Source of the DNA: Escherichia phage 2725-N35
DNA length: 45,917 nt
Reading direction: 5' to 3' (one strand)
Sequence record: MN840485.1
The notes below the pieces were generated by a model, which saw only the letters and a list, made by a program, of their open reading frames with translations, did no database searches and was not told the origin of the DNA. Position 1 is the first letter of the stretch; each line of letters opens with the position of its first letter. Position numbers and translations under genes: made by a program. Below, piece after piece: positions 3,214-45,116 of the stretch.

Positions 3214-3268
3214 TAAACAATGGCACTTTGCATTATGTATAGTGCCTTTATTGTTTATGGAGGTAATT

Positions 3269-4258: not shown

Positions 4259-4282
4259 TTTTACAAATGGAGACTCTACACA

Positions 4283-14615: not shown

Positions 14616-14623
14616 TCTACACT

Positions 14624-14649
14624 AAATAAAAAACCCGCACTAGGCGGGT
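14624..14649 (-). terminator. Intra-operon hairpin with T-run between the I-like and J-like genes
   Basis: ACCCGC-ctagt-GCGGGT then T6AT3 on the minus strand. Confidence 0.5.
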
Positions 14650-14656
14650 ATGATAT

Positions 14657-15229
14657 TTAAGCAATGTCTTCACTATATGAACCCGCACTAAACACAGAAC
14701 CGCCAACCGTTCGATATCCATACGGAAGACAAACTGGATAACCAGCAGCTACAGTGTTCACAGCCGAGCCAAATGCATATGACGCCCTGTTACTTGTCTG
14801 GTTGCTCTGGTCTTTCAATCCAGTAGCTTGAGGTGATAGCAACTGAGCTACGCCGCCAGCAGCAAGAGAGATACCTGCACCAACAAGGTAGTATTGCTGG
14901 AATACAACACCAACAACGATTAGTGCGGCACCAAGTATTGTCTGAAATAACCCTCCAGACTTACGACCTTGTGGAATTGGCAAGATGCGTATCTCCTGAA
15001 CGGCACTAAAATCAGCAATTCGATGCTCGTTCACATTTTTACCATCCACAAAAATAGCATATCTTGTGTTTTGCCCTACATGGCTATTCATGAACTCTTT
15101 GAAGGATGGAATCTGAGAACAAAGCGCTCGCATTGCTTCTGGCACGCTACTCACTGCCATTTGGTGAACCTTGCCAAACCTCCTACCTAGAGACAGGCCT
15201 AACTTAATATCAATCAGTTTCTGGGTCAT
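14657..15229 (-). CDS. Tail assembly protein, lambda gpI-like
   Basis: 190 aa, position between K-like and J-like genes, hydrophobic G/A-rich segment. Confidence 0.65.
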   Translation of the reverse strand: MTQKLIDIKLGLSLGRRFGKVHQMAVSSVPEAMRALCSQIPSFKEFMNSHVGQNTRYAIFVDGKNVNEHRIADFSAVQEIRILPIPQGRKSGGLFQTILGAALIVVGVVFQQYYLVGAGISLAAGGVAQLLSPQATGLKDQSNQTSNRASYAFGSAVNTVAAGYPVCLPYGYRTVGGSVFSAGSYSEDIA

Positions 15230-15968
15230 AACTTACATCCTCTGGTAAATCCTTATGGCGAACAATTCGCACTGTTCTTTCGCGCCAGTAATCGGAGTAG
15301 ATATCAATGGAACTCATTTTACCATAAAGATGGTGAATGAATCTGTTGTTGCCAATGTAGATTCCTGCGTGGTTTGTCACCTCACTTTGCACCTGCATCA
15401 TAATCATTGAGCCAATAGGAATATCCGAATTTTTTACCAGCTCAAAGCCTTCCTTGATCCAGTTGTCGTCATAGATATTTTCGCTGTACTTCTTCTCCCA
15501 CCATGGGTAATTAACGCGATAGTCATTCAGTTTGACTCCGTATTTCTTGTGGAATGCCATTACCAGCCCCCAGCAATCGAAGCTACCCAACCCCCATGGT
15601 CGACCAATCAGTGGCATGGTTGATGGCTCAAGAATCCGCATGTCTCCCTCCGGGATACTTACGATAACGTAAGGAATCTCGCATTCATTACAGCTGCAAA
15701 TATCCGCAGGACTGGGCCTTGTTGTCGCTCCGTCACCAGTGTGAGAGTGGACTACGTAAACAATAGATTCATTGTGAGCCAATTCAAAGAGAACATCTGC
15801 ATACTCATTTGAGTCAAGCAGGAATTCATTCTCCGGGTCTTTGCTTGCGTTTGTTATCCTGTGATACTTCTGCGCCCTACCCTTCTGCGTGACAACTCCA
15901 CAGCACTCATGCGGGTAAACTTCCTTTGCGTGCTGGAAGATTTCCAGTTTAACTTTTGGTGTTAACAT
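15210..15968 (-). CDS. Tail tip protein, lambda gpK-like (MPN/JAB + NlpC/P60 domains)
   Basis: 'VVHSHTGDG' JAMM-like motif, Cys/His peptidase-like C-terminal half; conserved position. Confidence 0.8.
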   Translation of the reverse strand: MLTPKVKLEIFQHAKEVYPHECCGVVTQKGRAQKYHRITNASKDPENEFLLDSNEYADVLFELAHNESIVYVVHSHTGDGATTRPSPADICSCNECEIPYVIVSIPEGDMRILEPSTMPLIGRPWGLGSFDCWGLVMAFHKKYGVKLNDYRVNYPWWEKKYSENIYDDNWIKEGFELVKNSDIPIGSMIMMQVQSEVTNHAGIYIGNNRFIHHLYGKMSSIDIYSDYWRERTVRIVRHKDLPEDVSYDPETD

Positions 15969-15977
15969 TGTTCCCCC

Positions 15978-16733
15978 TTAGCTCTGATTCGCTTTAGCTT
16001 GAAGGCTTGCTGCTGCGCATCCACCAAATGAAAGCTGGTTATTCTCTCCAAATCTAATCTTACAGCTATTAACTGTTCCGGCGCAGAAATCTAGAGACGG
16101 ATCACTGACCGGGTTGTCGTCTTTGTCAAAATAACGATTGCCAGCGTAGTCGCATCCATTACCGCTGCGATACCAACCCCTAGAAGCCCAATAGCAAACA
16201 GACTGAACAAGTCTTGCGGGGATATAAATACCATCCATATCCATCGGGCTGCTTAGCTCAAACGATGCGGTCTTGTAGTCAACCTGCTTCGGTCGCTCAA
16301 TAAAGTAAACGAATCTGCGATAGTCACCGTCAGCAATGCTTCCATCCTCATTGATGTTATCGCGCGTAGTAATCCAGATTGTAACCTTAGCTTTAACAAG
16401 TCCGTTGTATGTTCGGATTAACGCACTAATACGCTGGTCAACGTTTGATACCGTTAATGTAACCTTATTGGCCTTTCCGTCAGAAGTCATATTTATGCCA
16501 GAGATTCCAAATGGTCTAGGCCCGTACTCTTCACCACGAAATGTGATGGTTTTCTCTGGTAGTGGCTCGCCATTCATTTGAGCCAGCATGATTTCTTCTG
16601 GAGTGTATGAGATGTTCTCATTGTGGAACGAATAAACGAGACCCCCGAAGGACGTGCCGTCAACCTGGATTAGTGTCACAATCTCACCAGGGAAAAGGCT
16701 TTGCAACTGATTTTCAAACTTTGGACTTAACAT
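15978..16733 (-). CDS. Minor tail protein, lambda gpL-like
   Basis: Position and size; C-terminal Cys cluster; start set at ATG with GGAG SD (track uses upstream TTG at 16748). Confidence 0.65.
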   Translation of the reverse strand: MLSPKFENQLQSLFPGEIVTLIQVDGTSFGGLVYSFHNENISYTPEEIMLAQMNGEPLPEKTITFRGEEYGPRPFGISGINMTSDGKANKVTLTVSNVDQRISALIRTYNGLVKAKVTIWITTRDNINEDGSIADGDYRRFVYFIERPKQVDYKTASFELSSPMDMDGIYIPARLVQSVCYWASRGWYRSGNGCDYAGNRYFDKDDNPVSDPSLDFCAGTVNSCKIRFGENNQLSFGGCAAASLQAKANQS

Positions 16734-16750
16734 ATATTTCTCCAACAAAA

Positions 16751-16767
16751 AGCCCCATATAGGGGCT
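16751..16767 (-). terminator. Intra-operon hairpin with T-run between the M-like and L-like genes
   Basis: GCCCC-tatat-GGGGC then TTTTTGTT. Confidence 0.45.
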
Positions 16768-16771
16768 TAGT

Positions 16772-17122
16772 TTAACGCATTGAGCTAAAAACTTCTACGA
16801 ATTGCATGTTTACAGTCTGAACTTCGCTACTAATTGGTGTAACTGAAATGCTATCCTGCTGAATAACAAACATAGAAGTATCACCTTGCGGTGTTTTCCA
16901 GAAGAATGGTGTGATGATGTGATTGAAGCAGAAATCCATAACCTCACGCCAGTCCTTGTTTGTATAGGTCATCTGGTAGCTGCGCTTATTACTGCGGTAG
17001 CCCCCTGTTCCTCTTTGCTCAAAACCATTGCCAAAGCTAACAATACGAACATTGTTTGTATTGGAAAATGCAGCTCCACCATTCTGGATTTGTGTACACC
17101 ATGTAAAATTATCTATTGCCAT
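16772..17122 (-). CDS. Minor tail protein, lambda gpM-like
   Basis: 116 aa, immediately downstream of the tape measure gene. Confidence 0.6.
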   Translation of the reverse strand: MAIDNFTWCTQIQNGGAAFSNTNNVRIVSFGNGFEQRGTGGYRSNKRSYQMTYTNKDWREVMDFCFNHIITPFFWKTPQGDTSMFVIQQDSISVTPISSEVQTVNMQFVEVFSSMR

Positions 17123-17133
17123 AAAAATCCTTA

Positions 17134-17147
17134 GGGGCCGAAGCCCC
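17134..17147 (-). terminator. Intra-operon hairpin between the tape measure and M-like genes
   Basis: GGGGC-ttcg-GCCCC followed by taaggattttt and ATG. Confidence 0.4.
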
Positions 17148-17152
17148 GTTAA

Positions 17153-20134
17153 TTAGTTAAATCCGCGCAGGTACTGATAAGCTCTGCCACCCTGCTGGAA
17201 AGACTGAGAAATCTCTTCAGCTACAATTGCCTTAACGCCATTTTGCAGCGCCTTGGCCTGCTCTGGGTCACTTCCAATTCCACTATTAACGTTAACCGTA
17301 ATTCCACTAACATTAACATCTGTGCCTCCAGAAACCAAGCCACCATTTGCATAGCCAGAGGGACCACCAACGACACCACCGTTTGCGTAACCTTTCATTA
17401 GAGCGTAAAGGTTCTTAACACCGATTCGACTAGTTGCTTCTTTTGTGAATACAAACTCACCACGGTGTACGGTTCCTGCTGGTTGGTATTTCCCTCCATT
17501 ACCAGTATAACCACCGTTAGCGAATCCACCACCAATCGCAGATGCGATAGAGCCAATCGCGCCACCAGTACCACCAAAGCTACTTAAACTAGACTCGATA
17601 GCCTTAACAATAAGAAGCTGAGCCGCAATCTTAGCAATCTGTTTAAGGATGTTAACAGTGAACTCTCTGAAGTTAGTTTCACCAGTTGTTACAAGGTCAG
17701 TAATCTGGTCAGTAATGCCTTCAAATACTGTGGTGGTTAAACTTCCAGCAATTGAGAATGCATCCGTCGCGCTCTCAGCCCAATTAGCAAAGGATTGGTT
17801 CACACCAGCAAGCCAGTTTTCACGTAGCGCATCTTCCTGAGCATAAAAGTTACGTCTTGCCTCGAGAAGCTGCTGAAAATCCACGTCATCAATTGCGCCA
17901 CCAGCATTAACCTGATTGGACTGAAGAGCCTGAATCTCTTTGGCTCTCTGTTGTTCACGAGAAGATAGACCAGCCCCCAAATCAATGTTTTTTGCTTCGT
18001 TGTTAATCTGAAGAATCTTCTTGCGGTTATCTTCAGCTAACTTATTGGCTCGCTCCTGCAAAACAATCTGATCACCCAATTCAGCCTTCTGCCTGGCCAA
18101 CTCAAGAACTTTATCCTTTTCAATTAGAAGTCTTGCTTGCTCTTTGGTAATTGAGCCATCAAGTTGCCTCTGCTCAAGAATCCTGAATTTAGCCTCCTCC
18201 TGAAGATACTGCTTGCGCTCATTGCTTATTACTGCGCCAATATCCCTATTTTCCTGAAGTACCTTGAGTTGGGCCTGAAGCGCTAGAACGCCAGATTCAT
18301 AACCAATTGTTAAATCTATTTGCTCCTTAACCCTACTATTTTCTTCTTTCCTGTTCTTCTTGATCGCATCAAGCTCATCCTGAAGCGCCTTCTTCCTTTT
18401 TGCAAATTCCTCATCAGTACCTGACTGCTCATTGGTATTCTGATTTTCTCTGCGAGTAACGTAACCAAGCTCTCCCTCTCTGATTCTGGCATCTCGCTCC
18501 TTGATAGACTTCTCTAGCTCAAGGTTTTGCTTCTTGGCGGCATCGATAATCTTCTGCTGCCCCTTGATAACATCATCACCAACGCCATCAAGACCAGGAA
18601 TGTTCTGCAATGCCTGAGTTGCGCTAATTACGAATTCACCAATCAGCGCATCACCCTGATTAATGAAGACCCTGATCTGCTCAATTGTTCCGGCGATTAC
18701 GTCAACAAACAGGTTTAGAGCCCCAACCGTTCTACGGCTAATTGCATCCCAGATATCAGAGATGTACTTTCTGAAATCATTCCAGGCTAGCTCAAGCGGA
18801 GTTAACTGCTCTGCTATGTCGTTAAGGTTGGCTTCCTGCGACTTGCTGAAAATGTCAATTGCGGCGGTAACAGCCTCAACCTCTCCCTTTGTCTTCCTAA
18901 GGTTTTCAATTGTCGTCAACTGCCCCTGAGTGAGGAAGTTAAAGCGCTTATCCAAATCAACCAATCCCTGTATTGGGTCGCTAGCAATCTGGTTGTAGTA
19001 ACCAGTAATTTCCTTTGCATCCTTACCTGTCAACTGCGCCCATCTTGCGGTTGATTTAGTAATCTTGTCAATCTGCGTCAGCGTAAGGTTTCCTTGCTCA
19101 ACAAGGCTCGTTGCGATGCTAGTCACAAGTCCCCTAGTGGCTCCTGTTGCATCAGAAACAGAACTAACCAACTCTCTAACCTGCGAGATTGATGCTATTG
19201 TAGAGTTGTTGGAGAACGCAATTGCGGAGTTTAACGCCCTGAATTCACTTTCAGCCTGAGCCGCACCAACACCAAGAGCTACAAGCGCCCCACCCAAAAC
19301 ACCAACAGCAACATTGAATGGATTTAAGGCTGCAAGCGCGAATCTAAATGTGTTGCCAATACCGCCAAAGCTATCCTTAATCTGCCCACCCTGCTGGATT
19401 GCAATAAGCCAAACAGGCATGCCGCTAGCTAATGACGTGGTAATATCAGTTATCTGTGCCGGAAGCATCCTGATAGCATTCCTGTATTGACCGGCACTTA
19501 ATCCTGATCTCAGAAACGCCTTACTTTGGTTTGCTAATTGAACATTAGCCCTCTCTGAAGCCTCTGCGATTCTGTCAATAATAGGTGCTGCCTGAGAGCT
19601 TACGCCAAGCTGAGAAGCCTGTAACTTTAAGTACTCCTCACGCGTCAATGTTGCCGCTTGAGCCTGTCGCTCAAGTGAAGCAATGAATCTATCAGCTTCA
19701 GCCTTTGCCTTTGCCTTATCCTTTGCGGCTTGAGCTGCCGCCCTACCCTCTTCAGTTAGTGCCGCACGTGAACGGGCGAGCTTTGCATTCTGCGTTTCAA
19801 GAGCCTCGCCTAAGCGGAAAAACTCCTCATCAGGAACTACGCCAGCAGCAAATGCCTTATCAAGTCCTACAGCCGCCTCTTGCAGCTTACGGAACTTTGC
19901 CGCAGTTGGATCAATAGCAGTTTGCAATTTAGCTAAAGATGCTTGTTGCTCAGCAAGTGCGTGAGCGGTATCTCTAGCCTGGTTTTTCGCAACCTGCTCA
20001 GCATTGACGAACTCACTAATACCGGAAGCGGCTTGCTGGTTGGCCTGTCTGAACTTCTGTAGGGATTGCGTACCCCTGTCTACCTGAGATACGTCTACGG
20101 CTAGTGTGATTCCGGCTAATTCATTTGTTGCCAT
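17153..20134 (-). CDS. Tail tape measure protein
   Basis: 993 aa, long coiled-coil-rich (A/Q/E/K/L) sequence, located between the chaperones and the tip genes. Confidence 0.85.
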   Translation of the reverse strand: MATNELAGITLAVDVSQVDRGTQSLQKFRQANQQAASGISEFVNAEQVAKNQARDTAHALAEQQASLAKLQTAIDPTAAKFRKLQEAAVGLDKAFAAGVVPDEEFFRLGEALETQNAKLARSRAALTEEGRAAAQAAKDKAKAKAEADRFIASLERQAQAATLTREEYLKLQASQLGVSSQAAPIIDRIAEASERANVQLANQSKAFLRSGLSAGQYRNAIRMLPAQITDITTSLASGMPVWLIAIQQGGQIKDSFGGIGNTFRFALAALNPFNVAVGVLGGALVALGVGAAQAESEFRALNSAIAFSNNSTIASISQVRELVSSVSDATGATRGLVTSIATSLVEQGNLTLTQIDKITKSTARWAQLTGKDAKEITGYYNQIASDPIQGLVDLDKRFNFLTQGQLTTIENLRKTKGEVEAVTAAIDIFSKSQEANLNDIAEQLTPLELAWNDFRKYISDIWDAISRRTVGALNLFVDVIAGTIEQIRVFINQGDALIGEFVISATQALQNIPGLDGVGDDVIKGQQKIIDAAKKQNLELEKSIKERDARIREGELGYVTRRENQNTNEQSGTDEEFAKRKKALQDELDAIKKNRKEENSRVKEQIDLTIGYESGVLALQAQLKVLQENRDIGAVISNERKQYLQEEAKFRILEQRQLDGSITKEQARLLIEKDKVLELARQKAELGDQIVLQERANKLAEDNRKKILQINNEAKNIDLGAGLSSREQQRAKEIQALQSNQVNAGGAIDDVDFQQLLEARRNFYAQEDALRENWLAGVNQSFANWAESATDAFSIAGSLTTTVFEGITDQITDLVTTGETNFREFTVNILKQIAKIAAQLLIVKAIESSLSSFGGTGGAIGSIASAIGGGFANGGYTGNGGKYQPAGTVHRGEFVFTKEATSRIGVKNLYALMKGYANGGVVGGPSGYANGGLVSGGTDVNVSGITVNVNSGIGSDPEQAKALQNGVKAIVAEEISQSFQQGGRAYQYLRGFN

Positions 20135-20154
20135 CTAAGCCTCCATAATAGAAA

Positions 20155-20180
20155 ACCCGCCGAAGCGGGTTATTTTTTTC
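20155..20180. terminator. Hairpin between the chaperone and tape measure genes, with a strong T-run on the plus (antisense) strand
   Basis: ACCCGC-cgaa-GCGGGT followed by TATTTTTTT on the plus strand. Confidence 0.45.
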
Positions 20181-20481
20181 TCAGGTTATCCATCATCTCA
20201 AGAGCCTTAGCTTCAAGGATGCGTAAATCGCTGAGCACCAATTCTTCTTCAGAGACATTATACACTCTAAAGAGGAAATTTAGCACGTTGTAATCCATCC
20301 CTGTAGCTCCGTTAGCTCCGACTCTCCACTGCGTAGCCATTGAACAATAAATGTCCCACGCTTTCATCATGTTTTCGTCGAAGTTTAAAACTTCAGGCTC
20401 TTCGTCTTCGTAATCAGAGCGGCGCATCCCAATAGCTTCCAGTTCGGCATCAGTTGGCTCTGACTGGTACTGTAGATACAC
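20170..20481 (-). CDS. Tail assembly chaperone, downstream (gpT-like) frame
   Basis: Overlaps the upstream chaperone ORF by 32 nt; no ATG at its 5' end (track starts at GTG), consistent with expression as a frameshift fusion. Confidence 0.55.
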   Translation of the reverse strand: MYLQYQSEPTDAELEAIGMRRSDYEDEEPEVLNFDENMMKAWDIYCSMATQWRVGANGATGMDYNVLNFLFRVYNVSEEELVLSDLRILEAKALEMMDNLRKK

Positions 20482-20803
20482 CGCTCGTTTTAGTTTTTAC
20501 TCGCTGACCAGCAAGTGCTTGCATATAAGCCGTGGTCAGTGCAACGGTTGAAGCTGGGAACAGGTCGGAGAACTCATTAACGTTATCCTCGTTGTATTCC
20601 TCTTCCAAATCCCAATCAGAAGCAATTGCCATAATAAGCTCTTTGGTGCTCAAGTCTTCCTTGTTAAGCAATTCCTGAAGTTCAGAAGTCTTCTTGTGCT
20701 TAACTGTAAAAATAACCTCTACATCCTGGTCGTTAGCCAGCTTGAATTTTACTGGTAGCTTGAAGTCTGGCAGTGCCGCCAGTGAAAGTTTGAACTTTGC
20801 CAT
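20450..20803 (-). CDS. Tail assembly chaperone (gpG-like)
   Basis: 117 aa acidic protein directly upstream of the tape measure gene, downstream of the major tail gene. Confidence 0.65.
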   Translation of the reverse strand: MAKFKLSLAALPDFKLPVKFKLANDQDVEVIFTVKHKKTSELQELLNKEDLSTKELIMAIASDWDLEEEYNEDNVNEFSDLFPASTVALTTAYMQALAGQRVKTKTSGVSTVPVRAN

Positions 20804-20842
20804 TTTTGTTAATCCTCTTATTGTTTGTGAGTATGTATTCTA

Positions 20843-21091
20843 TTACTTAGTGTTTTCTTTTGCAATATTAGCAGCCGAGTCCTTGCAGACCTCTTTGCCA
20901 TATTTCATGATTTGGTCAACTTTACCACCTACAAGTTCCTGGCATGCTCGCTCAGCTTTAGCGAACTCAACAGTATATTTGTTTGCCTTGATATTTGCAT
21001 CAGCCTCACCAGTTGGGTTAACAATCTGAACCACTGCATAAAAAGCAACCAGAACTGCAGCAAGCTTGATGATGTTTTTAACGTTATTCAT
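20843..21091 (-). CDS. Moron: small secreted or membrane-anchored protein
   Basis: 82 aa; N-terminal hydrophobic segment IIKLAAVLVAFYAVVQIV; own P-box promoter and an upstream terminator; inserted between the major tail and chaperone genes. Confidence 0.6.
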   Translation of the reverse strand: MNNVKNIIKLAAVLVAFYAVVQIVNPTGEADANIKANKYTVEFAKAERACQELVGGKVDQIMKYGKEVCKDSAANIAKENTK

Positions 21092-21109
21092 TTCTTTAAT
21101 CTCTCATTT

Positions 21110-21170
21110 CGTTTCGATGAGTTAACTATACAGGAAGATTGGATTAACGCTTTAGCAAAAAGTGCTATGC
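21110..21170 (-). promoter_or_regulatory. P-box promoter for the moron gene
   Basis: ATAGCACTTTTTGCTAAAG, 22 nt, TATAGTTAACTCATCGAAACGAAATGAG. Confidence 0.6.
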
Positions 21171-21175
21171 AATAA

Positions 21176-21201
21176 AAAACCCTCCGAAGAGGGTTTGTGT
21201 T
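21176..21201 (-). terminator. Terminator after the major tail protein gene
   Basis: ACCCTC-ttcg-GAGGGT then T6. Confidence 0.75.
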
Positions 21202-21858
21202 TTAAACTTCCGCTGCAACTGAGGACAGCCGACCATGAATGGATACAGCGATGGATACCGTTTCGATTTCGTTTACGCCGATAGTTGGCGTGTCGTTGAA
21301 AGCGATAGTGCCGGACTGCAAGCGCATTTCACTGGCGCGAGGAACAAACAGACGAATCGCAACAACCTGTCCTGACTCATCATAGTTACGCAGAACCGGA
21401 TAGACCGGGTTGGTGTACTCGTGAGCGAAGGTGAAGGTGTTCGTTACCGCAGACTTATAAGTAGGAATCTGCTGTTCACGGTCACTAGAAAGACACTGGA
21501 AGTTAACGAATTGCTGTTCGCCACCATCAGTAGATACATCCTGAACACAAGGAACTTCGAACCATGAAGTGATCTTAACAACTTCACCAGTTAAACCGGC
21601 CGGGAACTTGGTGGTGCTGGAGGTGTCAATACCTTCAACAGTTACTGACGTATCAGTGATTGCAGTCACTCGAACTTGCTTGTAAGCCAGAAGCGTTGAA
21701 GCAGAAGAGGTGAAAAGCAGGTAATCACCAACGACCAAACCAGAAGCGTTAGATACAGTTAAAACAGGGGTAACTGCGTTAGAAATTGCAGTTACGTCAA
21801 TCGCATCACCGCGAGAGCCTTCTACGAACACCTGAGTGCCGTTTGATAAATGAGCCAT
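21202..21858 (-). CDS. Major tail protein
   Basis: 218 aa, position (lambda gpV equivalent), followed by a strong terminator. Confidence 0.7.
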   Translation of the reverse strand: MAHLSNGTQVFVEGSRGDAIDVTAISNAVTPVLTVSNASGLVVGDYLLFTSSASTLLAYKQVRVTAITDTSVTVEGIDTSSTTKFPAGLTGEVVKITSWFEVPCVQDVSTDGGEQQFVNFQCLSSDREQQIPTYKSAVTNTFTFAHEYTNPVYPVLRNYDESGQVVAIRLFVPRASEMRLQSGTIAFNDTPTIGVNEIETVSIAVSIHGRLSSVAAEV

Positions 21859-21873
21859 GTATTTTTCCTTTTG

Positions 21874-22275
21874 TTAGTCTAGACGAACATAAAAACGAAC
21901 CGGGATAAACCACCCAGATTTGGATTTGATAACCGGGTTAACAATTCCAGACTCATAAATGGTCCCGCTGTCAAGCATTGTACCATCAACGATAGATTCT
22001 GCCAATTGATTAGCGATTTGTCTCGGCTTATCAATACCAGTACCAGGGCTGAAGAAAACAGAAATTTGCACCATTCCAACGTAGTATTTGCACTTCCTGC
22101 TTAGCCCGTAGGTTACAGTGTCAACCTCTGTGTAGTCGTACTTAAGCCAGATTGAGCCGTCAGCAGGGGGAGTAAATGCAGTATTCTCCCACGCAACTGG
22201 ATACCTGACTGGAAATTCATTTACCAACAAATCGTTGACGAATTTCCTTGCTGCTAATGATAATTTATATTGCAC
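21874..22275 (-). CDS. Tail terminator protein (gpU-like), putative
   Basis: 133 aa directly upstream of the major tail gene. Confidence 0.45.
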   Translation of the reverse strand: MQYKLSLAARKFVNDLLVNEFPVRYPVAWENTAFTPPADGSIWLKYDYTEVDTVTYGLSRKCKYYVGMVQISVFFSPGTGIDKPRQIANQLAESIVDGTMLDSGTIYESGIVNPVIKSKSGWFIPVRFYVRLD

Positions 22276-22702
22276 GACGAGCCTCCTCTACAGCTTCCTG
22301 GAAATACCTGCCAAGCCTCGCTTGCACCACGCCCAAAACACCAGACGGAGCCTGATTTGAAGCTCCATACTCAAGGTTGGCTGCGTAATCAAGTCGGTTA
22401 GTAATATAAATAACACTAGTGGCTTTTGAATTGGCTACTGCTCTGGCTTGTCTGGCGAGATATGTTTTTGTCTGCCCGCCAGTCTGATCGTACTCATTCA
22501 GAGACTGCTGGGCTGGTGAGTTTGCGGTAATTTGCCAGTTAGCCTTGAATCTACCAGTGTCGACAGGGGAAAGGTCCACAATTGCGTTGGCTGTCTTGGT
22601 AACCGTGTTGGCGACTACAATTTCAAATCCCTTATCTGCTCTGTTAATCCAGTCAGCAATAGATTTCTCAAAAGTAGCAACGCTTCCAATATTTCTAGCC
22701 AT
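22265..22702 (-). CDS. Tail completion/neck protein, putative
   Basis: Start trimmed to ATG (MARNIG...) with GGTGG SD; position in the connector module. Confidence 0.4.
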   Translation of the reverse strand: MARNIGSVATFEKSIADWINRADKGFEIVVANTVTKTANAIVDLSPVDTGRFKANWQITANSPAQQSLNEYDQTGGQTKTYLARQARAVANSKATSVIYITNRLDYAANLEYGASNQAPSGVLGVVQARLGRYFQEAVEEARRAI

Positions 22703-23066
22703 AAGTAGCCACCCTACGAAGAATCGGTCTGTAACCAACCACTGTACCAGTTGGTTTAACTGGTCGCGGATCAACAACAACAAAAGTCTCGCCATCAACT
22801 TTAATCTGATAACCCTGCTTAATTTCCGCCTGTGCTGTGAAGATTCCGCGCTTATCGCCAAACTGGATAAACTCGCCATCAATATCTCGCGTCTTGATTT
22901 CTCGCACTAAGCCTTTTAGCTGGAATGTTTGCGCTGGCACTTCTACTTCAACGCCATTGACGATTTTAACATATCCAGCACCAGTGCTCATCTCGTAGAC
23001 GCCATTGGCATCACTAAAGAAGTTAATTCCAGCGCGAGTGATTGATTCAATTTCGTTGTAGTTCAT
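22695..23066 (-). CDS. Head-tail adaptor protein, putative
   Basis: Position; ATGA overlap with the upstream gene. Confidence 0.35.
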   Translation of the reverse strand: MNYNEIESITRAGINFFSDANGVYEMSTGAGYVKIVNGVEVEVPAQTFQLKGLVREIKTRDIDGEFIQFGDKRGIFTAQAEIKQGYQIKVDGETFVVVDPRPVKPTGTVVGYRPILRRVATYG

Positions 23067-23464
23067 CGGCAACCGCACCCACCGCCACGAGCGGAAGTAA
23101 TCAGTCCAAAGCCGCCACCTTTCTTGCGGAGAAGTGATTTGTACATACGGCCCCAGGAGGAAGATGATAAATCACCTTGGATTGCTGATTGGTTATCATA
23201 GGTGATAGAGAATTCACCGCTAAGTGCATAACTTGCCATTCTACGGCTGTATGTCTCAAGGCCTTCATTCTCACCCTTAAAAGCGCCATCAGAAAGCATC
23301 AGGTGTAATGCATAAAGGCCCACAGCGCGATCTGCATCATTACCAAGCTTACTCTCACATACGTAGAGACGTGCCAAATCGATCCACACATTAATTGATT
23401 CGTCATCCACTGCCTTGAGCGCAGGAACAAGTGAGCGCATAAACGCCAAAATTGCATCATTCAT
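23063..23464 (-). CDS. Head-tail connector (gp6-like), putative
   Basis: Position downstream of the capsid gene; start set at ATG with GGAG SD (track starts at TTG). Confidence 0.35.
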   Translation of the reverse strand: MNDAILAFMRSLVPALKAVDDESINVWIDLARLYVCESKLGNDADRAVGLYALHLMLSDGAFKGENEGLETYSRRMASYALSGEFSITYDNQSAIQGDLSSSSWGRMYKSLLRKKGGGFGLITSARGGGCGCR

Positions 23465-23505
23465 ATTAACTCCATACAATAAAGGACGCCGAAGCGCCCT
23501 GTTTG

Positions 23506-23751
23506 TTATTTGTACTCGTTGCCAGTCTCAGCTTCGGAGATGGTTTTCGGTTCTTTGCGCTTTTTCTTGCTAACAATTTCTTGCGCGATCTGTTTGGTTG
23601 TTTTTGCGTCACCCTCAATGGTTAGCTTACCCTCTGCAATTAAACGCTTGAGTCCGTCGCAAATTACATCAACCTCGAAAGTGTCACCAGGCAGATATTT
23701 CTCACCCTTATAAACGATAAGGCAAGCGCCAGTGTGTTCTAAACGAATCAT
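23506..23751 (-). CDS. Hypothetical small structural-module protein
   Basis: 81 aa ORF between the capsid and connector genes. Confidence 0.4.
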   Translation of the reverse strand: MIRLEHTGACLIVYKGEKYLPGDTFEVDVICDGLKRLIAEGKLTIEGDAKTTKQIAQEIVSKKKRKEPKTISEAETGNEYK

Positions 23752-23812
23752 TTTTGTCTCCTTTGTTTATCTGATTGAGTGATTATAACTCAACAAATCC
23801 ATTTGGTACAGA

Positions 23813-23843
23813 CGTAAAAAAGCCCTACGAAGAGGGCCATTTA
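23813..23843 (-). terminator. Terminator after the major capsid gene
   Basis: GCCCTC-ttcg-(T)AGGGC then T6. Confidence 0.7.
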
Positions 23844-24785
23844 TTACTCGTAGGTAATGCCTTTCATTACTGCCATCGTCAGAGGACGATATAAAATCAA
23901 ACCTGTAGCCTTAGAGGTTACGGGGTACTTAAAGTGCAAGTCCTTAGGTTGACCAGGAAGCACATTGGTAGCCTCTGGAATCTCGATAGACATATTGAGC
24001 GGGTTCTTCTCAAATGCCAGGGCAGCCTTACCACCTGCGCCATCGTAGTTATCCAGGAACTGAAGATAACGCAGATTGATACCAGAGTTGTTGGTAGCGA
24101 ACAGCTGAGCGTAACTGATAGAGGTGTTAGGAACCAGCTCTTGCATCAGGCGGCGAGCGGAAGCAGGTAGCAAGATATCAGTTGCGGTGTGAGTTCCATT
24201 AGTCGAAGTCTCGATTGCATCAATAAGTGCGGTAATATCAGTCATGGCGGCAGCTGCGGAGTTCCACGTACCAGCAACAACGTTGTTTATGTTCGGGTGG
24301 TCGAATACGCTAGGAATGCCGTGCGGAGCAGAGCCAGACCAAACCAGTTTGTCCAGCAGGTTATCGTGCGCTTCGAAAGCCAGTGCTTGCTTGCGAGTTG
24401 ACAGAGACTGACCAGTTGCGGCGCCTGCTTTAATTTCATCGGTAGAAATCAGGAATGCGTTACCGAAACGGAACACTTTACCTTGTTTCTCGGTCATGAA
24501 AGCGTCAACCAGCGGCAAGTCGTCAGAGTAATCAGCGATAATCTGAGCGATACCAACACCATCAAATTCTGGGTATTCGAAATATTTCGCATGACCAGGG
24601 ATTTCATTGGTCACAGGGAAGATATTAACAACGGAGTTGTCTGCATATTCTTTTTCGTAAGCTCGTGCCAGATTGGCGGTCAGTTGCTTAACAGTCCAGA
24701 TACCAGCGGCATCTGCTTTCTCTACGCCCATTTGCTCGAGGTGAGCGGTGATTTTTGCTTGTTCTGCATCAAATTTAATGGCCAT
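23844..24785 (-). CDS. Major capsid protein, putative
   Basis: 313 aa; position between the head morphogenesis and connector genes; flanked by a terminator. Confidence 0.55.
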   Translation of the reverse strand: MAIKFDAEQAKITAHLEQMGVEKADAAGIWTVKQLTANLARAYEKEYADNSVVNIFPVTNEIPGHAKYFEYPEFDGVGIAQIIADYSDDLPLVDAFMTEKQGKVFRFGNAFLISTDEIKAGAATGQSLSTRKQALAFEAHDNLLDKLVWSGSAPHGIPSVFDHPNINNVVAGTWNSAAAAMTDITALIDAIETSTNGTHTATDILLPASARRLMQELVPNTSISYAQLFATNNSGINLRYLQFLDNYDGAGGKAALAFEKNPLNMSIEIPEATNVLPGQPKDLHFKYPVTSKATGLILYRPLTMAVMKGITYE

Positions 24786-24877
24786 TCTTTATTGTTCCTT
24801 TTCAGTTAGGTGTCTACGAGCTTATTATACAGTAGGGCGACCGCAAATCAATAGATAAGTTAGCTGCCCATAATGTG

Positions 24878-25567
24878 TTAGCTCGCGATAATCTTAGCTA
24901 CTCGAAGCTGCGCCAGGAGGTCGTTTACTTTAGTGACTACTGCGTTAACTGCCGCAGTAGCCGAGGTGGCAACTGCTTCCGCGTCAGCACCTGTCACAGT
25001 CTGACTCACAACGTTAGCGACAGCCGCGCCAGCAACAAACTTGTTTCCAGGCATGGCGTTTTTCGCTCCAGCACCGATCTGGATAACGCCAGCCTCAGTG
25101 GTGCTTGCGGCAGGAAGGCTGGCTACAGGAACGACACCACCAATGTTAGCCAGCGTCTTATTTCCAGCCATAGCTTGGTTTGCGCCAGTGCCAACAATCG
25201 GTGCAAAAGTGGCTGGTTTTCCGGTCACGTCACCCCAAGCTACTGAAACAGATCCGCCCGAACTTCCTTTATATGCATAAGCAAATAGCTGACCAGCATC
25301 AAGACTCAGGCTTGATGTATCAATGGTGAATCCGTCATCAGATGCTTCCTCGATAGCGTCGAACAACTTACGCATACTTGTGGAAGTGATCACCTTAGCT
25401 TCAGTGATTGAGCTATCAGCGCCCTTAGCAACAACGATGGAATATGACTGTGAGCCATTTACCGTGATTTTACTTACTGGCTGAAAGCCTGCCGTGATTG
25501 CCGCTTGCAGCAGTGTATTGAATCGACCGCTATCTGCACTGATAGCCTTAACTTCTGTGTAAGCCAT
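24878..25567 (-). CDS. Head-module structural protein (possible decoration/fibre-like protein)
   Basis: 229 aa; A/G/V-rich C-terminal half with 'WGDVTGKPATFAP' motif; role uncertain. Confidence 0.3.
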   Translation of the reverse strand: MAYTEVKAISADSGRFNTLLQAAITAGFQPVSKITVNGSQSYSIVVAKGADSSITEAKVITSTSMRKLFDAIEEASDDGFTIDTSSLSLDAGQLFAYAYKGSSGGSVSVAWGDVTGKPATFAPIVGTGANQAMAGNKTLANIGGVVPVASLPAASTTEAGVIQIGAGAKNAMPGNKFVAGAAVANVVSQTVTGADAEAVATSATAAVNAVVTKVNDLLAQLRVAKIIAS

Positions 25568-25624
25568 GATTTATCTCCTTTTCTAAGTGAGAATTGAATA
25601 TAACATAGGCGTAATTTGATTACA

Positions 25625-25660
25625 AAAAAACCTCCCGAAGGAGGCTTTATATATCTTAAT
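25625..25660 (-). terminator. Terminator-like hairpin after the 25663..26184 gene
   Basis: CCTCC-ttcg-GGAGG then T7. Confidence 0.6.
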
Positions 25661-25662
25661 TA

Positions 25663-26184
25663 TTAAACAGCGACAGTTGAGTCTGCTGATTGAATCAACT
25701 GAACCTCAACCATTGCACCATCAACGCTTTCACCTTGCTTAATTGGGTCAGCGCCGCCAGCGTAAGCCGACACATAGCCACCAGCAAATGTAAAACCAGT
25801 TTCCCAGGTAGTGGTAGCAGCCTCAGCAGCAACAACGCCACTCGCGTTTACGTAAACCTTACTACCAAAAACTGGCGCAGCCGCTAGAGTTGTACGAACC
25901 CAGATTCGACCGTGTGTCATCACGTTAACCGCTTCATTTACGCGAGCGGTGCCATCTGGAGTCTCATAATGAGATTTAACAACAACACCGTAAGGTTTAA
26001 CTGGTGTGCCAGTCACAGCAGGAAGCCCAACAACTTTGTGACCATCTACAGGCTGAGCGGATGTAACGCCAACAAAAGTGCCAACCGGAATGGCTGCTGC
26101 GCCGCCAACTACGCAAGCGCCGTCGATGTTGTACAGAGAAGTATCAGAAACCATACCAGCCAGTGCTACGGAACGAATTGCCAT
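25663..26184 (-). CDS. Head-module protein (possible decoration or scaffold-like)
   Basis: 173 aa, G/A/V-rich; position only. Confidence 0.3.
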   Translation of the reverse strand: MAIRSVALAGMVSDTSLYNIDGACVVGGAAAIPVGTFVGVTSAQPVDGHKVVGLPAVTGTPVKPYGVVVKSHYETPDGTARVNEAVNVMTHGRIWVRTTLAAAPVFGSKVYVNASGVVAAEAATTTWETGFTFAGGYVSAYAGGADPIKQGESVDGAMVEVQLIQSADSTVAV

Positions 26185-26196
26185 GTTTATAACTCC

Positions 26197-27291
26197 TTAT
26201 TTCTTAATTTTAGCTAAACGAGCACGTGGGTCTAATTTCTTAGGCTCATCGGCGCTGTCAGATTTGTCGGAAGCAGTAGTTGCTTTACGTACTTCAGCCA
26301 TTTTATCAGATTCTTTGGCAATGTCGAATGCCGCGTCGATGTATGCGTCAGACTTCTCACTAACATCAAGACCGGAGACTTCTTTAACGTAAGCAACTTT
26401 AATGCCTTTAGCATCCAGACCGTCAGCCTTAACACCAGCCTCAGCAGCAACAGCAACCAGAGCGGCTAGGGCATCAGCATCAGCTTTCGCTTTAGCAACG
26501 GCAGCTTCGATTTCAGCTGGCATTGCATCTACTTTAGCTTTCAGAGAATCGCGCTCTGCGATTGCAGTGTCAGCCTTTGCGTTCAGTGCTTCGATGTGAG
26601 AAGCGATTTCCGGGGCAACTTCAAATTCCTGTGCTCCGTCGAGTTTAATCTTAATCATTTTCTGTTTATCCTCTTTATTGATATCAACGTCAGTAGTATA
26701 CGGGTTTTCCTGTTGAGCGTCAAAATTTAACTTTGCCACCTGAGCTCTTCCTTTGTATACCAGTGCGACATGGTTTACTTTAATTTCAGTCTGCAGCGCA
26801 TCGAATCTAACCCAGTCAGAAGGAATTTCATCCTGTGATTGATACTCACCGTCTAGCTTGTACTCACCAGTTTCGTTACTACCCCAGCCTTTAGACTCAA
26901 CGTCAACAGTTGAGTACCCTACGGATAGCTCACCAGCAATGCCATTTTTTGCCTTCTCGATTGATTCCTTGTCATAAATAGTTAGTGGAACAATAACATT
27001 TGAATCTTCACGCATTGCTGAGCCAGATACCGCCCCTACAACGACCTCTTTAGCATTCTCTGAGTTAACAAAAACATGACCTAAGGTAATTGGCTTACCC
27101 TGATAACTAGCCAGAGAATCATGCTTAAATACCTCTGAGGCTGGTCTAAATTCTCTGCGTTCTTTGCCATCTGGAAGGTAGTAGGTTTGCACCCCGACGC
27201 GTGCAACAATCGGGGTATCAACCAGAAAGCCGTTTTCATCAAATCTAGCTTTCACCTTCGCGCTGTCATAGCGCAATTTCTTCATTAACAA
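26197..27291 (-). CDS. Head morphogenesis protein (possible prohead protease/scaffold fusion)
   Basis: 364 aa directly downstream of portal; C-terminal A/K/E-rich coiled-coil-like region. Confidence 0.45.
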   Translation of the reverse strand: MLMKKLRYDSAKVKARFDENGFLVDTPIVARVGVQTYYLPDGKERREFRPASEVFKHDSLASYQGKPITLGHVFVNSENAKEVVVGAVSGSAMREDSNVIVPLTIYDKESIEKAKNGIAGELSVGYSTVDVESKGWGSNETGEYKLDGEYQSQDEIPSDWVRFDALQTEIKVNHVALVYKGRAQVAKLNFDAQQENPYTTDVDINKEDKQKMIKIKLDGAQEFEVAPEIASHIEALNAKADTAIAERDSLKAKVDAMPAEIEAAVAKAKADADALAALVAVAAEAGVKADGLDAKGIKVAYVKEVSGLDVSEKSDAYIDAAFDIAKESDKMAEVRKATTASDKSDSADEPKKLDPRARLAKIKK

Positions 27292-45079: not shown

Positions 45080-45116
45080 TTTATTTCTCTCTTTGTGTTT
45101 CGTTTCGATGGAGTAA

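What the first reader, a model, noticed from the sequence alone, without database searches (positions are those of the whole stretch)
20843..21201. Moron with its own promoter and terminator inside the tail operon, encoding a small secreted/membrane protein
Between the major tail protein gene and the tail chaperone genes there is an 82-aa ORF with an N-terminal hydrophobic helix, preceded by a promoter-like element and by the terminator of the major tail gene. Independent transcription units inside structural operons are typical morons. Small envelope-targeted proteins at this position often mediate superinfection exclusion or receptor modification.
Basis: partly seen in the sequence, partly recalled or inferred. 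Interest (0 to 1): 0.6.

Follow-up and report, generated by a model that had tools for sequence, protein, structure and literature searches.

The report
Small exported accessory protein in tail operon
A T1-like E. coli phage carries a real 82-codon gene for a small exported protein between its tail-tube and tail-chaperone genes, with its own phage-type promoter but no terminator; the function is untested, and the setup most resembles known phage genes that block entry of rival phages.

Summary
The window is a complete Braunvirinae (T1/Rtp-like) coliphage genome with its tail genes on the minus strand. Between the major tail protein gene (21202-21858) and the tail assembly chaperone gene (start 20803) lie four things:
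- a strong terminator (21177-21196);
- a perfect copy of the family's repeated 'DR' promoter-like module (21151-21168, with TATAGT at 21125-21130);
- an 82-codon ORF (20843-21091);
- no terminator after the ORF.

The ORF is under purifying selection (dN/dS 0.03-0.31) and belongs to an orphan family (phrog_22925) found only in Braunvirinae. It has an N-terminal signal peptide or membrane anchor. A 96%-identical orthologue is reported positive by SignalP and TMHMM. The roughly 50-residue helical tail carries two invariant cysteines.

In about 55 other phage loci with the same tail module, the gap between these two genes is 53-125 nt, too short to hold a gene. Phage Rtp has an unrelated lipoprotein gene behind the same leader.

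So this is a moron-like cargo slot for envelope proteins, but not a full promoter-gene-terminator moron. Receptor masking is unlikely: there is no lipobox, an Rtp45-type exclusion lipoprotein is encoded elsewhere in the window, and the slot gene does not track the receptor used. The best guess is receptor-independent exclusion at DNA entry, as in HK97 gp15. This is untested.

The parts
21177..21196 (-). Intrinsic terminator of the major tail (tube) protein gene: an 8-bp stem, a UUCG loop and a U-tract running to about 21168. It forms the upstream boundary of the slot. It is not the small ORF's own terminator.
   Evidence: -11.5 kcal/mol, z = -3.8. Invariant in nine Braunvirinae. Most other loci printed show a hairpin plus T-run at the same place (read by eye). 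Annotated as a terminator in T1 and EC3a.
21151..21168 (-). DR element ATAGCACTTTTTGCTAAA, a member of the Drexlerviridae 21-nt direct repeat family (T subtype). Its arms form a palindrome, TAGCA-N5-TGCTA. By my placement from the -10 hexamer it is centred near -42.
   Evidence: about 21 copies in the window; zero mismatches here. The repeat is published as aaATAGCACnnnTTGnTAAAA, function unknown (PMC11447400). It is the only copy inside the 11190-28500 morphogenesis block.
21125..21130 (-). -10-like hexamer TATAGT, 22 nt after the TTGCTA of the DR. The predicted transcription start is near 21118, the A of ATCGAAACGA.
   Evidence: 20 of 21 DR copies have a hexamer matching at least 5 of 6 positions at 22 +/- 1 nt. 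Conserved as TATAGT, TATATT or TATTAT in relatives. The start position is inferred and has not been mapped.
21092..21118 (-). Conserved 5' leader ATCGAAACGAAATGAGAGATTAAAGAA, with the phage-typical Shine-Dalgarno-like GAGAGA at 21100-21105.
   Evidence: The same leader precedes rtp34 in Rtp and several other DR-driven genes in the window.
20843..21091 (-). ORF82 (82 aa, stop codon included), family phrog_22925. Residues 1-32 form a signal peptide or signal anchor. Residues 33-82 form a basic helical domain (predicted pI 9.0) with invariant Cys50 and Cys69.
   Evidence: SignalP and TMHMM results reported for MSK_000011, which tblastn places at 96.3% identity.
20996..21091 (-). Codons 1-32. The n-region carries K5 and K9. 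The hydrophobic core is L10-V24. The c-region is NPTGEADA, with a likely signal peptidase I site after A32 (position -3 is A/S/T/V and position -1 is A in the close homologues).
   Evidence: In the distant pairs this part has lower dN than the mature part (0.16 versus 0.51-0.55), but dS is also lower.
20837..20865 (-). Sigma-70-like promoter TTGCAA-17-TAGAAT, overlapping the last codons and the stop codon of ORF82 and pointing into the chaperone gene.
   Evidence: 9 of 12 positions, which alone is at chance level. It is, however, conserved as TTG(C/T)AA-17-TA(G/C/T)AAT in all ORF82-bearing phages, including those about 57% identical in protein. Annotated as a phiSITE promoter in EC3a. Absent behind rtp34 in Rtp.
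20154..20171 (-). The next terminator downstream, after the chaperone G/T genes and before the tape measure gene. It is the probable 3' end of the ORF82-chaperone transcription unit.
   Evidence: -11.8 kcal/mol, z = -3.0. Terminators are annotated at the equivalent place in T1 and EC3a.

Best explanation
ORF82 is a genuine accessory gene specific to the Braunvirinae lineage of T1-like phages. It occupies a cargo slot between the terminator of the tail tube gene and the tail chaperone gene.

Shown from sequence:
- The slot holds no gene in the other sampled phage loci with this tail module.
- In Braunvirinae the slot starts with a conserved copy of the phage's own DR promoter-like module and leader.
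- The cargo behind that leader is exchangeable. It is ORF82 in Guelphvirus, Veterinaerplatzvirus and Christensenvirus phages, and an unrelated lipoprotein in Rtpvirus.
- No terminator follows, so ORF82 would be the first cistron of a short unit, ORF82-chaperone G/GT, bounded by two terminators.
- The chaperone also keeps a conserved sigma-70-like promoter at the 3' end of ORF82.

Inferred:
- The product is inserted via Sec with its N-terminus in the cytoplasm.
- A roughly 50-residue basic two- or three-helix domain faces the periplasm, either released by signal peptidase after Ala32 or left anchored. It is probably stabilised by a Cys50-Cys69 disulfide.

Most likely function, not shown: in the infected cell the protein acts in the envelope independently of the receptor, probably by blocking DNA entry or tape-measure channel formation by superinfecting related phages. 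This would be analogous to HK97 gp15 and would complement the receptor-masking Rtp45-type lipoprotein encoded next to the receptor-binding protein gene.
For: - Gene reality: phrog_22925 match (E 2e-55); 39 homologue clusters; dN/dS 0.03-0.31; protein identical to the EC3a orthologue.
- Export: hydropathy and charge distribution; published SignalP and TMHMM positives for MSK_000011, 96.3% identical by tblastn; two cysteines invariant down to 47% identity; AF2 gives a helix at 2-24 plus helices at 30-54 and 57-81 (low confidence).
- Slot: the gene-to-gene gap is 53-125 nt outside Braunvirinae and 392-556 nt inside. The leader is identical in Rtp up to the start codon, and homology resumes just upstream of the chaperone ribosome-binding site. 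rtp34 has the lipobox LLAGC. CY1 carries an extra 46-aa hydrophobic ORF.
- Promoter: DR statistics and fixed geometry and the conservation footprint. A DR module also precedes the Rtp45-like exclusion lipoprotein gene at 9867.
- Receptor independence: the same ORF82 occurs in a FepA phage (IME253) and an LptD phage (JeanPiccard), whereas the LptD phage AugustePiccard has rtp34 (PMC8594841).
- Analogy: HK97 gp15 is a small inner-membrane protein encoded beside the chaperone and tape measure genes. It blocks genome entry in a tail-dependent way without touching the receptor (PMC3594210). The tape measure protein here is lambda/HK97-like (PF06791 plus PF09718).
Against: - There are no expression or phenotype data for any family member. 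I found none in the papers searched.
- There is no detectable homology to gp15/YebO, Imm, Sp, SieA or anything else.
- The function of the DR element is unproven. Its authors list a repressing 'stoperator' role as one option.
- The structural model has low confidence (pLDDT 63). In a simple hairpin, Cys50 and Cys69 would not face each other.
- Cleaved versus anchored topology is unresolved.
- All functional inference rests on position, targeting signals and analogy. With only a few independent lineages, the decoupling from receptor type is suggestive rather than statistical.
Confidence: 0.4

Rival explanations
1. Receptor-masking exclusion or receptor modification, as in Cor, Llp and Rtp45. 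ORF82 would bind the outer-membrane receptor from the periplasm and prevent adsorption. This is the reading the first reader favoured.
For: The protein is exported and small with conserved cysteines, like Rtp45, which has a Cys30-Cys38 disulfide. The counterpart in the Rtp slot is a lipoprotein.
Against: - The signal region of ORF82 contains no lipobox or cysteine.
- The window already encodes an Rtp45-type lipoprotein beside the receptor-binding protein gene.
- Known exclusion proteins of this type co-vary with the receptor-binding locus (PMC8594841). ORF82 is 92-95% conserved between a FepA phage and an LptD phage, and two LptD phages carry different slot genes.
Confidence: 0.07
2. A periplasmic or membrane factor that serves the phage's own cycle rather than exclusion. 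Examples are a lysis-timing regulator (like the T4 RI antiholin) or a protector of the envelope until lysis.
For: The architecture (N-terminal membrane segment plus a small helical periplasmic domain) resembles what I recall of T4 RI; that comparison was not tested here. ORF82's DR is of the T subtype (ATAGCACTTTTTG), the same subtype that precedes the lysis cassette at 42206, and also the helicase gene at 2721.
Against: The lysis cassette is elsewhere in the window (about 40749-42110): only the endolysin at 41114-41599 is confirmed here, by a lysozyme domain, while the holin and spanin are assigned by synteny with the Rtp annotation. No homology to RI. The family is absent from most Drexlerviridae, which share the same type of lysis cassette. 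DR subtypes have no demonstrated link to timing.
Confidence: 0.12
3. A host-takeover or counter-defence factor that targets a host inner-membrane or periplasmic protein, for example neutralising a membrane-bound abortive-infection or defence effector.
For: It is a lineage-specific, exchangeable small gene behind the same promoter module as many small ORFs of unknown function in the window. It has slightly lower GC than its neighbours (0.40 versus 0.44-0.48).
Against: Nothing specific points this way. There are no PADLOC or Pfam hits. Known anti-defence proteins are mostly cytoplasmic (my own recollection, not checked here).
Confidence: 0.15
4. A tail assembly or virion component, suggested by its position between the tube and chaperone genes.
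For: Its position inside the tail module, and co-transcription with the chaperone genes because no terminator intervenes.
Against: It carries a Sec-type signal and conserved cysteines. In Rtp the slot holds a lipoprotein, which cannot be a virion part. The slot holds no gene in about 55 loci with the homologous tail module.
Confidence: 0.06
5. A spurious or decaying ORF. The conserved DNA would then be only the regulatory region for the chaperone genes.
For: No function is known, and the Shine-Dalgarno sequence is weak (GAGAGA).
Against: dN/dS is 0.03-0.31, with dS reaching saturation. The length is conserved at 82 aa across 57-100% identity. GAGAGA-type ribosome-binding sites are typical of this phage's DR-driven genes.
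Confidence: 0.02

Closest known systems
HK97 gp15 moron (Juhala et al. 2000; Cumby et al. 2012; review PMC3594210)
   Same: Both are small proteins with an N-terminal membrane segment. Both are encoded by extra DNA inside a lambda-type siphophage tail operon, directly beside the chaperone genes. Both are absent from close relatives and independent of the receptor. Both phages have a lambda-H-like tape measure protein.
   Different: There is no sequence similarity: no YebO or any other Pfam hit, and the exhaustive search recovers only the family itself. gp15 lies between the chaperone and tape measure genes, whereas ORF82 lies between the tube and chaperone genes. HK97 is temperate and gp15 is expressed from the prophage, whereas this phage family is virulent. 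ORF82 has no terminator of its own and uses a phage-specific DR promoter module. Exclusion activity is untested here.
Rtp45 / T5 Llp / Cor-type superinfection-exclusion lipoproteins
   Same: They are small exported phage proteins of T1/T5-like coliphages. Rtp45 is disulfide-bonded. In this window the Rtp45 homologue is also driven by a DR module.
   Different: Those proteins are lipoproteins, are encoded next to the receptor-binding protein gene, and are matched to a specific receptor. ORF82 has no lipobox, lies 10 kb away in the tail-tube region, and is uncoupled from receptor type.
rtp34 of phage Rtp (uncharacterised lipoprotein)
   Same: It occupies exactly the same slot, with an identical terminator, DR and leader up to the ATG. 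It is also exported and also restricted to a Braunvirinae genus.
   Different: The sequence and size are unrelated (128 aa). It is a lipoprotein with a lipobox. It lacks the sigma-70-like promoter at its 3' end.
Drexlerviridae 21-nt direct repeats and T1 'transcriptons' (PMC11447400, which cites Roberts et al. 2004)
   Same: The element upstream of ORF82 is a consensus member, lying in the direction of transcription with its 5' end 77 nt (21168 to 21091) upstream of the start codon. The unit is bounded by rho-independent terminators, as described for the T1 late region.
   Different: The published description leaves the function open (stoperator, enhancer or UP-like element). Three points here are my own reading: the fixed 22-nt distance to a -10 hexamer, the palindromic arms, and the centre near -42.
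T4 Spackle (Sp) and Imm
   Same: From my own recollection, not tested here: these are small exported or membrane proteins of a virulent phage that block a post-adsorption step of superinfection.
   Different: There is no homology. Spackle's target is a tail lysozyme, and Pfam finds no muralytic domain in this phage's tape measure protein.

Membership tests
Moron (as defined by Juhala/Hendrix and in PMC3594210) | Extra DNA inserted between two genes that are adjacent in related phages | tested here: met
   The gap from the tail tube stop codon to the chaperone start codon is 53-125 nt in about 55 non-Braunvirinae loci, including T1, phiJLA23 and Klebsiella K50. It is 392-556 nt in all Braunvirinae.
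Moron (as defined by Juhala/Hendrix and in PMC3594210) | Its own promoter | tested here: inconclusive
   A perfect DR plus TATAGT module is present and conserved. No DR module has been shown experimentally to be a promoter, and the generic sigma-70 scan is negative here.
Moron (as defined by Juhala/Hendrix and in PMC3594210) | Its own terminator downstream of the gene | tested here: not met
   The 39-nt spacer to the chaperone start codon contains no hairpin. The only nearby terminators are the ancestral ones after the tube gene and after the chaperone genes.
Moron (as defined by Juhala/Hendrix and in PMC3594210) | Base composition different from the flanking genes | tested here: inconclusive
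   GC is 0.402 (GC3 0.373), against 0.44 for the genome, 0.478 for the tube gene and 0.436 for the chaperone gene. This is a modest shift over only 249 nt.
Moron (as defined by Juhala/Hendrix and in PMC3594210) | Expressed from a repressed prophage to benefit the lysogen | not testable with these tools
   Drexlerviridae such as TLS and MSK are described as virulent (PMC11447400, PMC8421802), so the criterion does not apply as written.
HK97 gp15 / YebO family | Sequence homology to gp15/YebO | tested here: not met
   No Pfam family matches at E <= 0.1. The exhaustive profile search of 1.84 billion representatives returns only the family's own cluster.
HK97 gp15 / YebO family | Inner-membrane location and a tail-dependent block of genome entry | not tested
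   Only the N-terminal hydrophobic segment and the positive-inside charge pattern are seen.
Cor / Llp / Rtp45 exclusion lipoproteins (PF24052 and relatives) | Lipoprotein signal with a lipobox cysteine | tested here: not met
   The signal region MNNVKNIIKLAAVLVAFYAVVQIVNPTGEADA contains no cysteine. By contrast, the window's Rtp45 homologue has ...MTVGC.
Cor / Llp / Rtp45 exclusion lipoproteins (PF24052 and relatives) | Encoded in the receptor-binding protein locus and co-varying with the receptor | tested here: not met
   It lies 10 kb from the receptor-binding protein locus. The same protein occurs in a FepA phage and an LptD phage.
phrog_22925 (unknown function) | Full-length profile match | tested here: met
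   E 2e-55, residues 1-82 matched to profile positions 1-82 of 82.
Sec-dependent exported protein (signal peptide or type II anchor) | n-h-c tripartite N-terminus with small residues at positions -3 and -1 | tested here: met
   K5 and K9; hydrophobic core L10-V24; P26; A30-D31-A32 followed by N33, with -3 = A/S/T/V and -1 = A in the close homologues. SignalP 4.1 and TMHMM positives are reported for MSK_000011. Whether the peptide is cleaved or stays as an anchor is unresolved.
Drexlerviridae DR element (aaATAGCACnnnTTGnTAAAA) | Match to the consensus, intergenic, in the direction of transcription, about 76 nt upstream of a start codon | tested here: met
   Zero mismatches at 21168-21151(-). 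The 5' end of the DR is 77 nt (21168 to 21091) from the ATG (consensus).

The most novel reading that the evidence does not exclude
ORF82 and rtp34 mark a previously undescribed 'envelope cargo slot' in virulent Braunvirinae phages. Its interchangeable exported proteins would provide a second, receptor-independent layer of superinfection exclusion, blocking tape-measure-mediated DNA entry. They would be expressed from an activator-dependent DR promoter, with a palindromic site centred near -42 that is possibly bound by the phage's Cro-like regulator encoded at 2734-3213. If so, ORF82 would be a new protein family with HK97-gp15-like activity in a lytic phage.
Probability: 0.25. Interest if true: 0.55.

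Novelty: new member of a known kind. Interest (0 to 1): 0.38.

Why it matters
Small exported phage proteins are a proven source of exclusion mechanisms, as with Llp, Cor, Rtp45, Sp, Imm and gp15. This family is uncharacterised. It is present in at least 81 sequenced coliphages, including the BASEL phage JeanPiccard, so it is easy to test.

The comparative result gives a clean natural experiment. The slot holds no gene in most of the sampled loci and is filled by two unrelated exported proteins behind an identical leader in Braunvirinae. It also offers a defined site where cargo genes are tolerated in T1-like phages, which is useful for phage engineering.

The analysis adds geometry to the enigmatic Drexlerviridae direct repeats: a fixed 22-nt distance to a -10 hexamer, palindromic arms and a centre near -42. 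This turns their function into a directly testable promoter/activator hypothesis. None of this is surprising in kind. It extends known themes to a new family.

Tried and rejected
- Generic sigma-70 scan of the leader. It found nothing between 21092 and 21176, and overall counts were at chance level (11 found versus 10.4 expected). I replaced it with the phage-specific DR analysis.
- Pfam, PADLOC and PDB sequence searches with ORF82 or its alignment. No hits, even at permissive thresholds.
- Exhaustive profile search of 1.84 billion representative proteins. It returned only the family's own cluster, so there are no remote homologues to use.
- AlphaFold2 with a 16-sequence alignment. Mean pLDDT was 63. 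Foldseek against PDB and BFVD gave only non-significant helical matches (best E 1.1 and 2.3), which I treated as meaningless.
- RNA fold of the leader, to look for a regulatory structure. Not different from shuffled sequences (z = -0.9).
- Literature searches for Drexlerviridae transcriptomes or Braunvirinae virion proteomes. Nothing usable turned up.
- A Spackle-like lysozyme-inhibitor reading. I set it aside because Pfam finds no muralytic domain in the tape measure protein and there is no homology.
- The idea that the N-terminal segment is under stronger selection than the mature domain. I softened this because dS is also lower there.
Full report
**What the window is**

[quoted passage not shown] Bases 1-983 repeat at 44935-45917, so the window is a whole genome of about 44.9 kb with overlapping ends.

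The structural genes run on the minus strand:
- major capsid protein, 23844-24785;
- tail terminator, 21874-22275 (PF13554);
- major tail tube protein, 21202-21858 (PF08813, E 1e-65);
- the small ORF, 20843-21091;
- tail assembly chaperone, from 20803 (PF08748);
- the DUF1799 'T' part, 20170-20481;
- tape measure protein, 17153-20134 (PF06791 plus PF09718).

**Checking the observation**

The ORF encodes MNNVKNIIKLAAVLVAFYAVVQIVNPTGEADANIKANKYTVEFAKAERACQELVGGKVDQIMKYGKEVCKDSAANIAKENTK.

It is a real gene:
- It matches phrog_22925 (unknown function) over its full length, E 2e-55.
- It has 39 homologue clusters among 5.8 billion proteins. Where a long contig is on record it is phage-sized, 42-49 kb; most of the rest are on short fragments.
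- Nine distinct alleles give pairwise dN/dS of 0.03-0.31, with dS up to saturation.
- Length is conserved at 82 aa down to 57% identity. One 88-aa variant occurs in ACG-M12.

The terminator directly after the tube gene has an 8-bp stem, a UUCG loop and a U-tract (-11.5 kcal/mol, z = -3.8). It is invariant in Braunvirinae.

**The promoter-like element**

The generic sigma-70 scan finds nothing in the 85-nt leader. The leader does, however, contain ATAGCACTTTTTGCTAAA. This motif recurs about 21 times in the window:
- the exact 13-mer occurs four times;
- at two or fewer mismatches there are 10 copies, against 2.0 +/- 1.4 in shuffles;
- the 18-nt pattern at three or fewer mismatches gives 23 copies, against 5.5 in shuffles.

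It is the published Drexlerviridae direct repeat, aaATAGCACnnnTTGnTAAAA. That repeat was found 21 times in phage TLS, about 76 nt upstream of start codons and in the direction of transcription. Its function is unknown; the authors suggest a stoperator, an enhancer or an UP-like element (PMC11447400).

My table adds geometry. In 20 of 21 copies, a hexamer matching TATAAT at 5 or more of 6 positions follows 22 +/- 1 nt after TTGnTA. The commonest hexamer is TATAGT, and it is followed by a conserved 'TAcc.cATCGAAAC' start region. The ORF82 copy is a textbook member: zero mismatches, a 22-nt spacer, TATAGT, then ATCGAAACGA.

Reading the sequence directly, the repeat has palindromic arms (TAGCA-N5-TGCTA). 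Placed relative to the -10 hexamer, its centre falls near -42, and the hexamer at the -35 position is poor (AAAGCG). This is the geometry of a class II activator-dependent promoter. That is my inference, not a tested result.

Across nine relatives, the terminator, the DR, the -10 hexamer and the leader are conserved. The DR-to-(-10) spacer changes in sequence but not in length, which is a classic promoter footprint.

Within the main morphogenesis block (11190-28500) this is the only DR.

**No terminator of its own**

Only 39 nt, without a hairpin, separate the ORF stop codon from the chaperone start codon. The next terminator is at 20171-20154, after the chaperone genes.

A sigma-70-like promoter, TTGCAA-17-TAGAAT, overlaps the ORF's last codons (20865-20837). 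On its own it is a chance-level match. It is retained, however, as TTG(C/T)AA-17-TA(G/C/T)AAT in all ORF82-bearing phages, including those only about 57% identical in protein. The chaperone gene therefore probably keeps its own promoter.

The likely architecture is: tube gene - terminator | P(DR) - ORF82 - [P(sigma-70)] - chaperone G/GT - terminator | tape measure gene. This fits the 'transcripton' picture proposed for the T1 late region.

**Comparative anatomy of the slot**

I fetched 63 loci by chaperone homology and added annotated records. Then I measured the gap between the tube stop codon and the chaperone start codon in each.
- In the about 55 non-Braunvirinae loci (T1/Tunavirinae, Rogunavirinae, Klebsiella phages and more distant relatives) the gap is 53-125 nt. 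There were three -5 nt overlaps, and one 199-nt case that appears to be a truncated match. None holds an ORF.
- Most of these gaps show a GC-rich hairpin plus T-run directly after the tube gene. I judged this by eye from the printed sequences.
- Rogunavirinae then have TGtTATAAT. The T1 group has a DR on the opposite strand.
- In every Braunvirinae locus (tube protein at least 85% identical) the gap is 392-556 nt and begins with a forward DR at 0-1 mismatch.

The cargo differs between genera:
- ORF82 occurs in Guelphvirus, Veterinaerplatzvirus, Christensenvirus and unclassified phages: 81 of 50,697 phage records.
- rtp34, an unrelated 128-aa lipoprotein (MKAIIAIMATLLLAGC...), occurs in Rtp, MM01, AugustePiccard and RobRod40.
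- CY1 has an additional unannotated 46-aa ORF with two hydrophobic stretches ahead of its ORF82 homologue.

Homology between Rtp and the window runs through the leader up to the start codon and resumes just upstream of the chaperone ribosome-binding site. The exchangeable unit is therefore essentially the ORF itself.

**The protein**

The n-region (K5, K9), the hydrophobic core (L10-V24), the helix-breaking P26 and the A30-x-A32 motif form a Sec-type signal. Position -3 is A/S/T/V and position -1 is A in the close homologues. Acidic residues follow the hydrophobic segment, which fits an N-in/C-out orientation.

The MSK genome paper lists MSK_000011 as positive in both SignalP 4.1 and TMHMM. 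That gene is the 82-aa ORF at 5578-5826 between the MSK tube and chaperone genes, and tblastn puts the MSK sequence at 96.3% identity to ORF82. Whether the peptide is cleaved or remains as an anchor cannot be settled here.

In distant pairs, the first 32 codons change less at the protein level than the rest (dN 0.16 versus 0.51-0.55). Their dS is also lower, so I do not read this as extra constraint.

The mature part (50 aa, 5.5 kDa, pI 9.0) is predicted helical (30-54 and 57-81), at low confidence (pLDDT 63). Cys50 and Cys69 are invariant in every variant, down to 47% identity. In so small a helical protein this suggests a periplasmic disulfide.

No remote homologue or fold match exists.

**What it probably does**

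Nothing here measures function, so what follows is inference.

Both cargo types are exported. Neither can be a virion part (a lipoprotein cannot be one), and the homologous tail module works without either gene in other phages. These are therefore accessory proteins acting in the infected cell's envelope.

Receptor masking, the function of Rtp45, Llp and Cor, is unlikely for ORF82 for three reasons:
- It has no lipobox.
- The window already encodes an Rtp45 homologue (9951-10196, PF24052, E 1e-38) immediately upstream of its receptor-binding protein gene. That gene pair is also driven by a DR module. Rtp45 is the structurally characterised LptD-blocking exclusion factor.
- The slot gene is uncoupled from receptor type. 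IME253 (FepA) and JeanPiccard (LptD) both carry ORF82 at 92-95% identity, while AugustePiccard (LptD) carries rtp34.

The closest functional analogue is HK97 gp15. It is a small inner-membrane protein encoded by extra DNA beside the chaperone and tape measure genes of a lambda-type tail operon. It blocks genome entry in a tail-dependent, receptor-independent way.

I therefore favour a post-adsorption exclusion role, at roughly 0.3-0.4. Lysis or envelope regulation, counter-defence and a structural role are less likely alternatives.

**Is it a moron?**

- Inserted between genes that are adjacent in relatives: yes.
- Own promoter: probably, at sequence level only.
- Own terminator: no.
- Distinct base composition: marginal (GC 0.40 versus 0.44-0.48).
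- Prophage expression: not applicable to a virulent family.

It is best described as a moron-like cargo gene embedded as the first cistron of a pre-existing transcription unit.

**Novelty**

The gene is annotated 'hypothetical protein' in the five annotated records opened and in the feature lists of the tblastn hits. In the papers I searched and opened I found no description of the slot, of its alternative exported cargos, or of the promoter geometry. In kind, though, this is a new member of a familiar class: small accessory envelope proteins of phages.

Interest is moderate. It is easy to test with BASEL phages, but it is not surprising.

Noticed in passing
window: 225(-), 2721(-), 3200(+), 4259(-), 8047(-), 9867(+), 21168(-), 29041(-), 31186(-), 32907(-), 33493(-), 34019(-), 34473(-), 34997(-), 35371(-), 36657(+), 37849(+), 38649(+), 42206(-), 44118(-), 45159(-): There are about 21 copies of the Drexlerviridae direct repeat. 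In 20 of 21, a TATAGT/TATAAT-like hexamer follows 22 +/- 1 nt after TTGnTA, and then a conserved ATCGAAAC start region. The repeat has palindromic arms (TAGCA-N5-TGCTA) centred near -42, which suggests a class-II activator site. A candidate binder is the Cro-like helix-turn-helix protein encoded at 2734-3213 (weak PF14549 hit).
   Followed up: partly
L003 (T1) about 2745-2765; L028, L040-L053: In T1 and all sampled Tunavirinae, the gap between the tube-gene terminator and the chaperone gene holds a DR on the opposite strand. In T1 it has its own TAAGAT 22 nt away, pointing back into the tube gene. This would be an antisense promoter or an orientation-independent protein-binding site. It is conserved across at least 14 loci.
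   Followed up: partly
window 4242-4259(-): A reversed DR (zero mismatches) sits at the start of the 854-aa ORF 4253-6817(+), which by synteny with Rtp is the tail-fibre gene. It abuts the terminator that follows the upstream ORF 3242-4195(+), the primase gene by the same synteny. It is the only DR copy without a good -10 hexamer, and it resembles the T1 arrangement.
   Followed up: no
window 20484-20504 (A-run near 20497): The chaperone gene ends in GUAAAAACUAA here, but in GUAAAAAACUAA in EC3a, Rtp, IME253 and vv26174I. The missing A removes the normal stop codon (giving 117 aa instead of 104). It also destroys the A-AAA-AAC heptamer that would give the -1 shift into the DUF1799 'T' frame. 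This is probably a homopolymer sequencing error. If real, the G-T fusion could not be made.
   Followed up: partly
window 1-983 versus 44935-45917: The two ends of the window are 99.6% identical, with 4 gap positions. One is a 2-nt indel that changes the reading frame of the first small ORF after the DR at 225/45159. This is terminal redundancy or an assembly overlap containing sequencing errors. The unit genome is about 44.9 kb.
   Followed up: partly
L008 (phage CY1) 1342-1482(+): There is an unannotated 46-aa ORF, MILIGMLTAFFYYATGLTFWVSLGAAIGTYFVSALLALIVRALRNR, with two hydrophobic stretches and an AGAGG Shine-Dalgarno sequence. It lies between the DR leader and the ORF82 homologue, making it a second small membrane-protein gene in the same slot.
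   Followed up: partly
window 9951-10196(+) and 10187-11158(+): A homologue of the Rtp45 superinfection-exclusion lipoprotein (PF24052, E 1e-38; lipobox TVGC) lies directly upstream of a receptor-binding protein 39% identical to Rtp44. Both are behind the DR at 9867.
   Followed up: yes
phage records PP134917.1 and MG065688.1: Records labelled 'Pseudomonas phage PsgS01F' and 'Campylobacter phage A110b' are 89-92% identical to this E. coli Braunvirinae region. The host labels are probably wrong, or the records derive from contaminants.
   Followed up: no
window 21092-21118(-) and other DR leaders: DR-driven genes share a GAGAG(A/G) Shine-Dalgarno-like motif about 9-10 nt before the ATG. In the ORF82 leader it lies inside a conserved mini-frame, ATG-AGA-GAT-TAA. 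The leader shows no significant RNA structure.
   Followed up: partly
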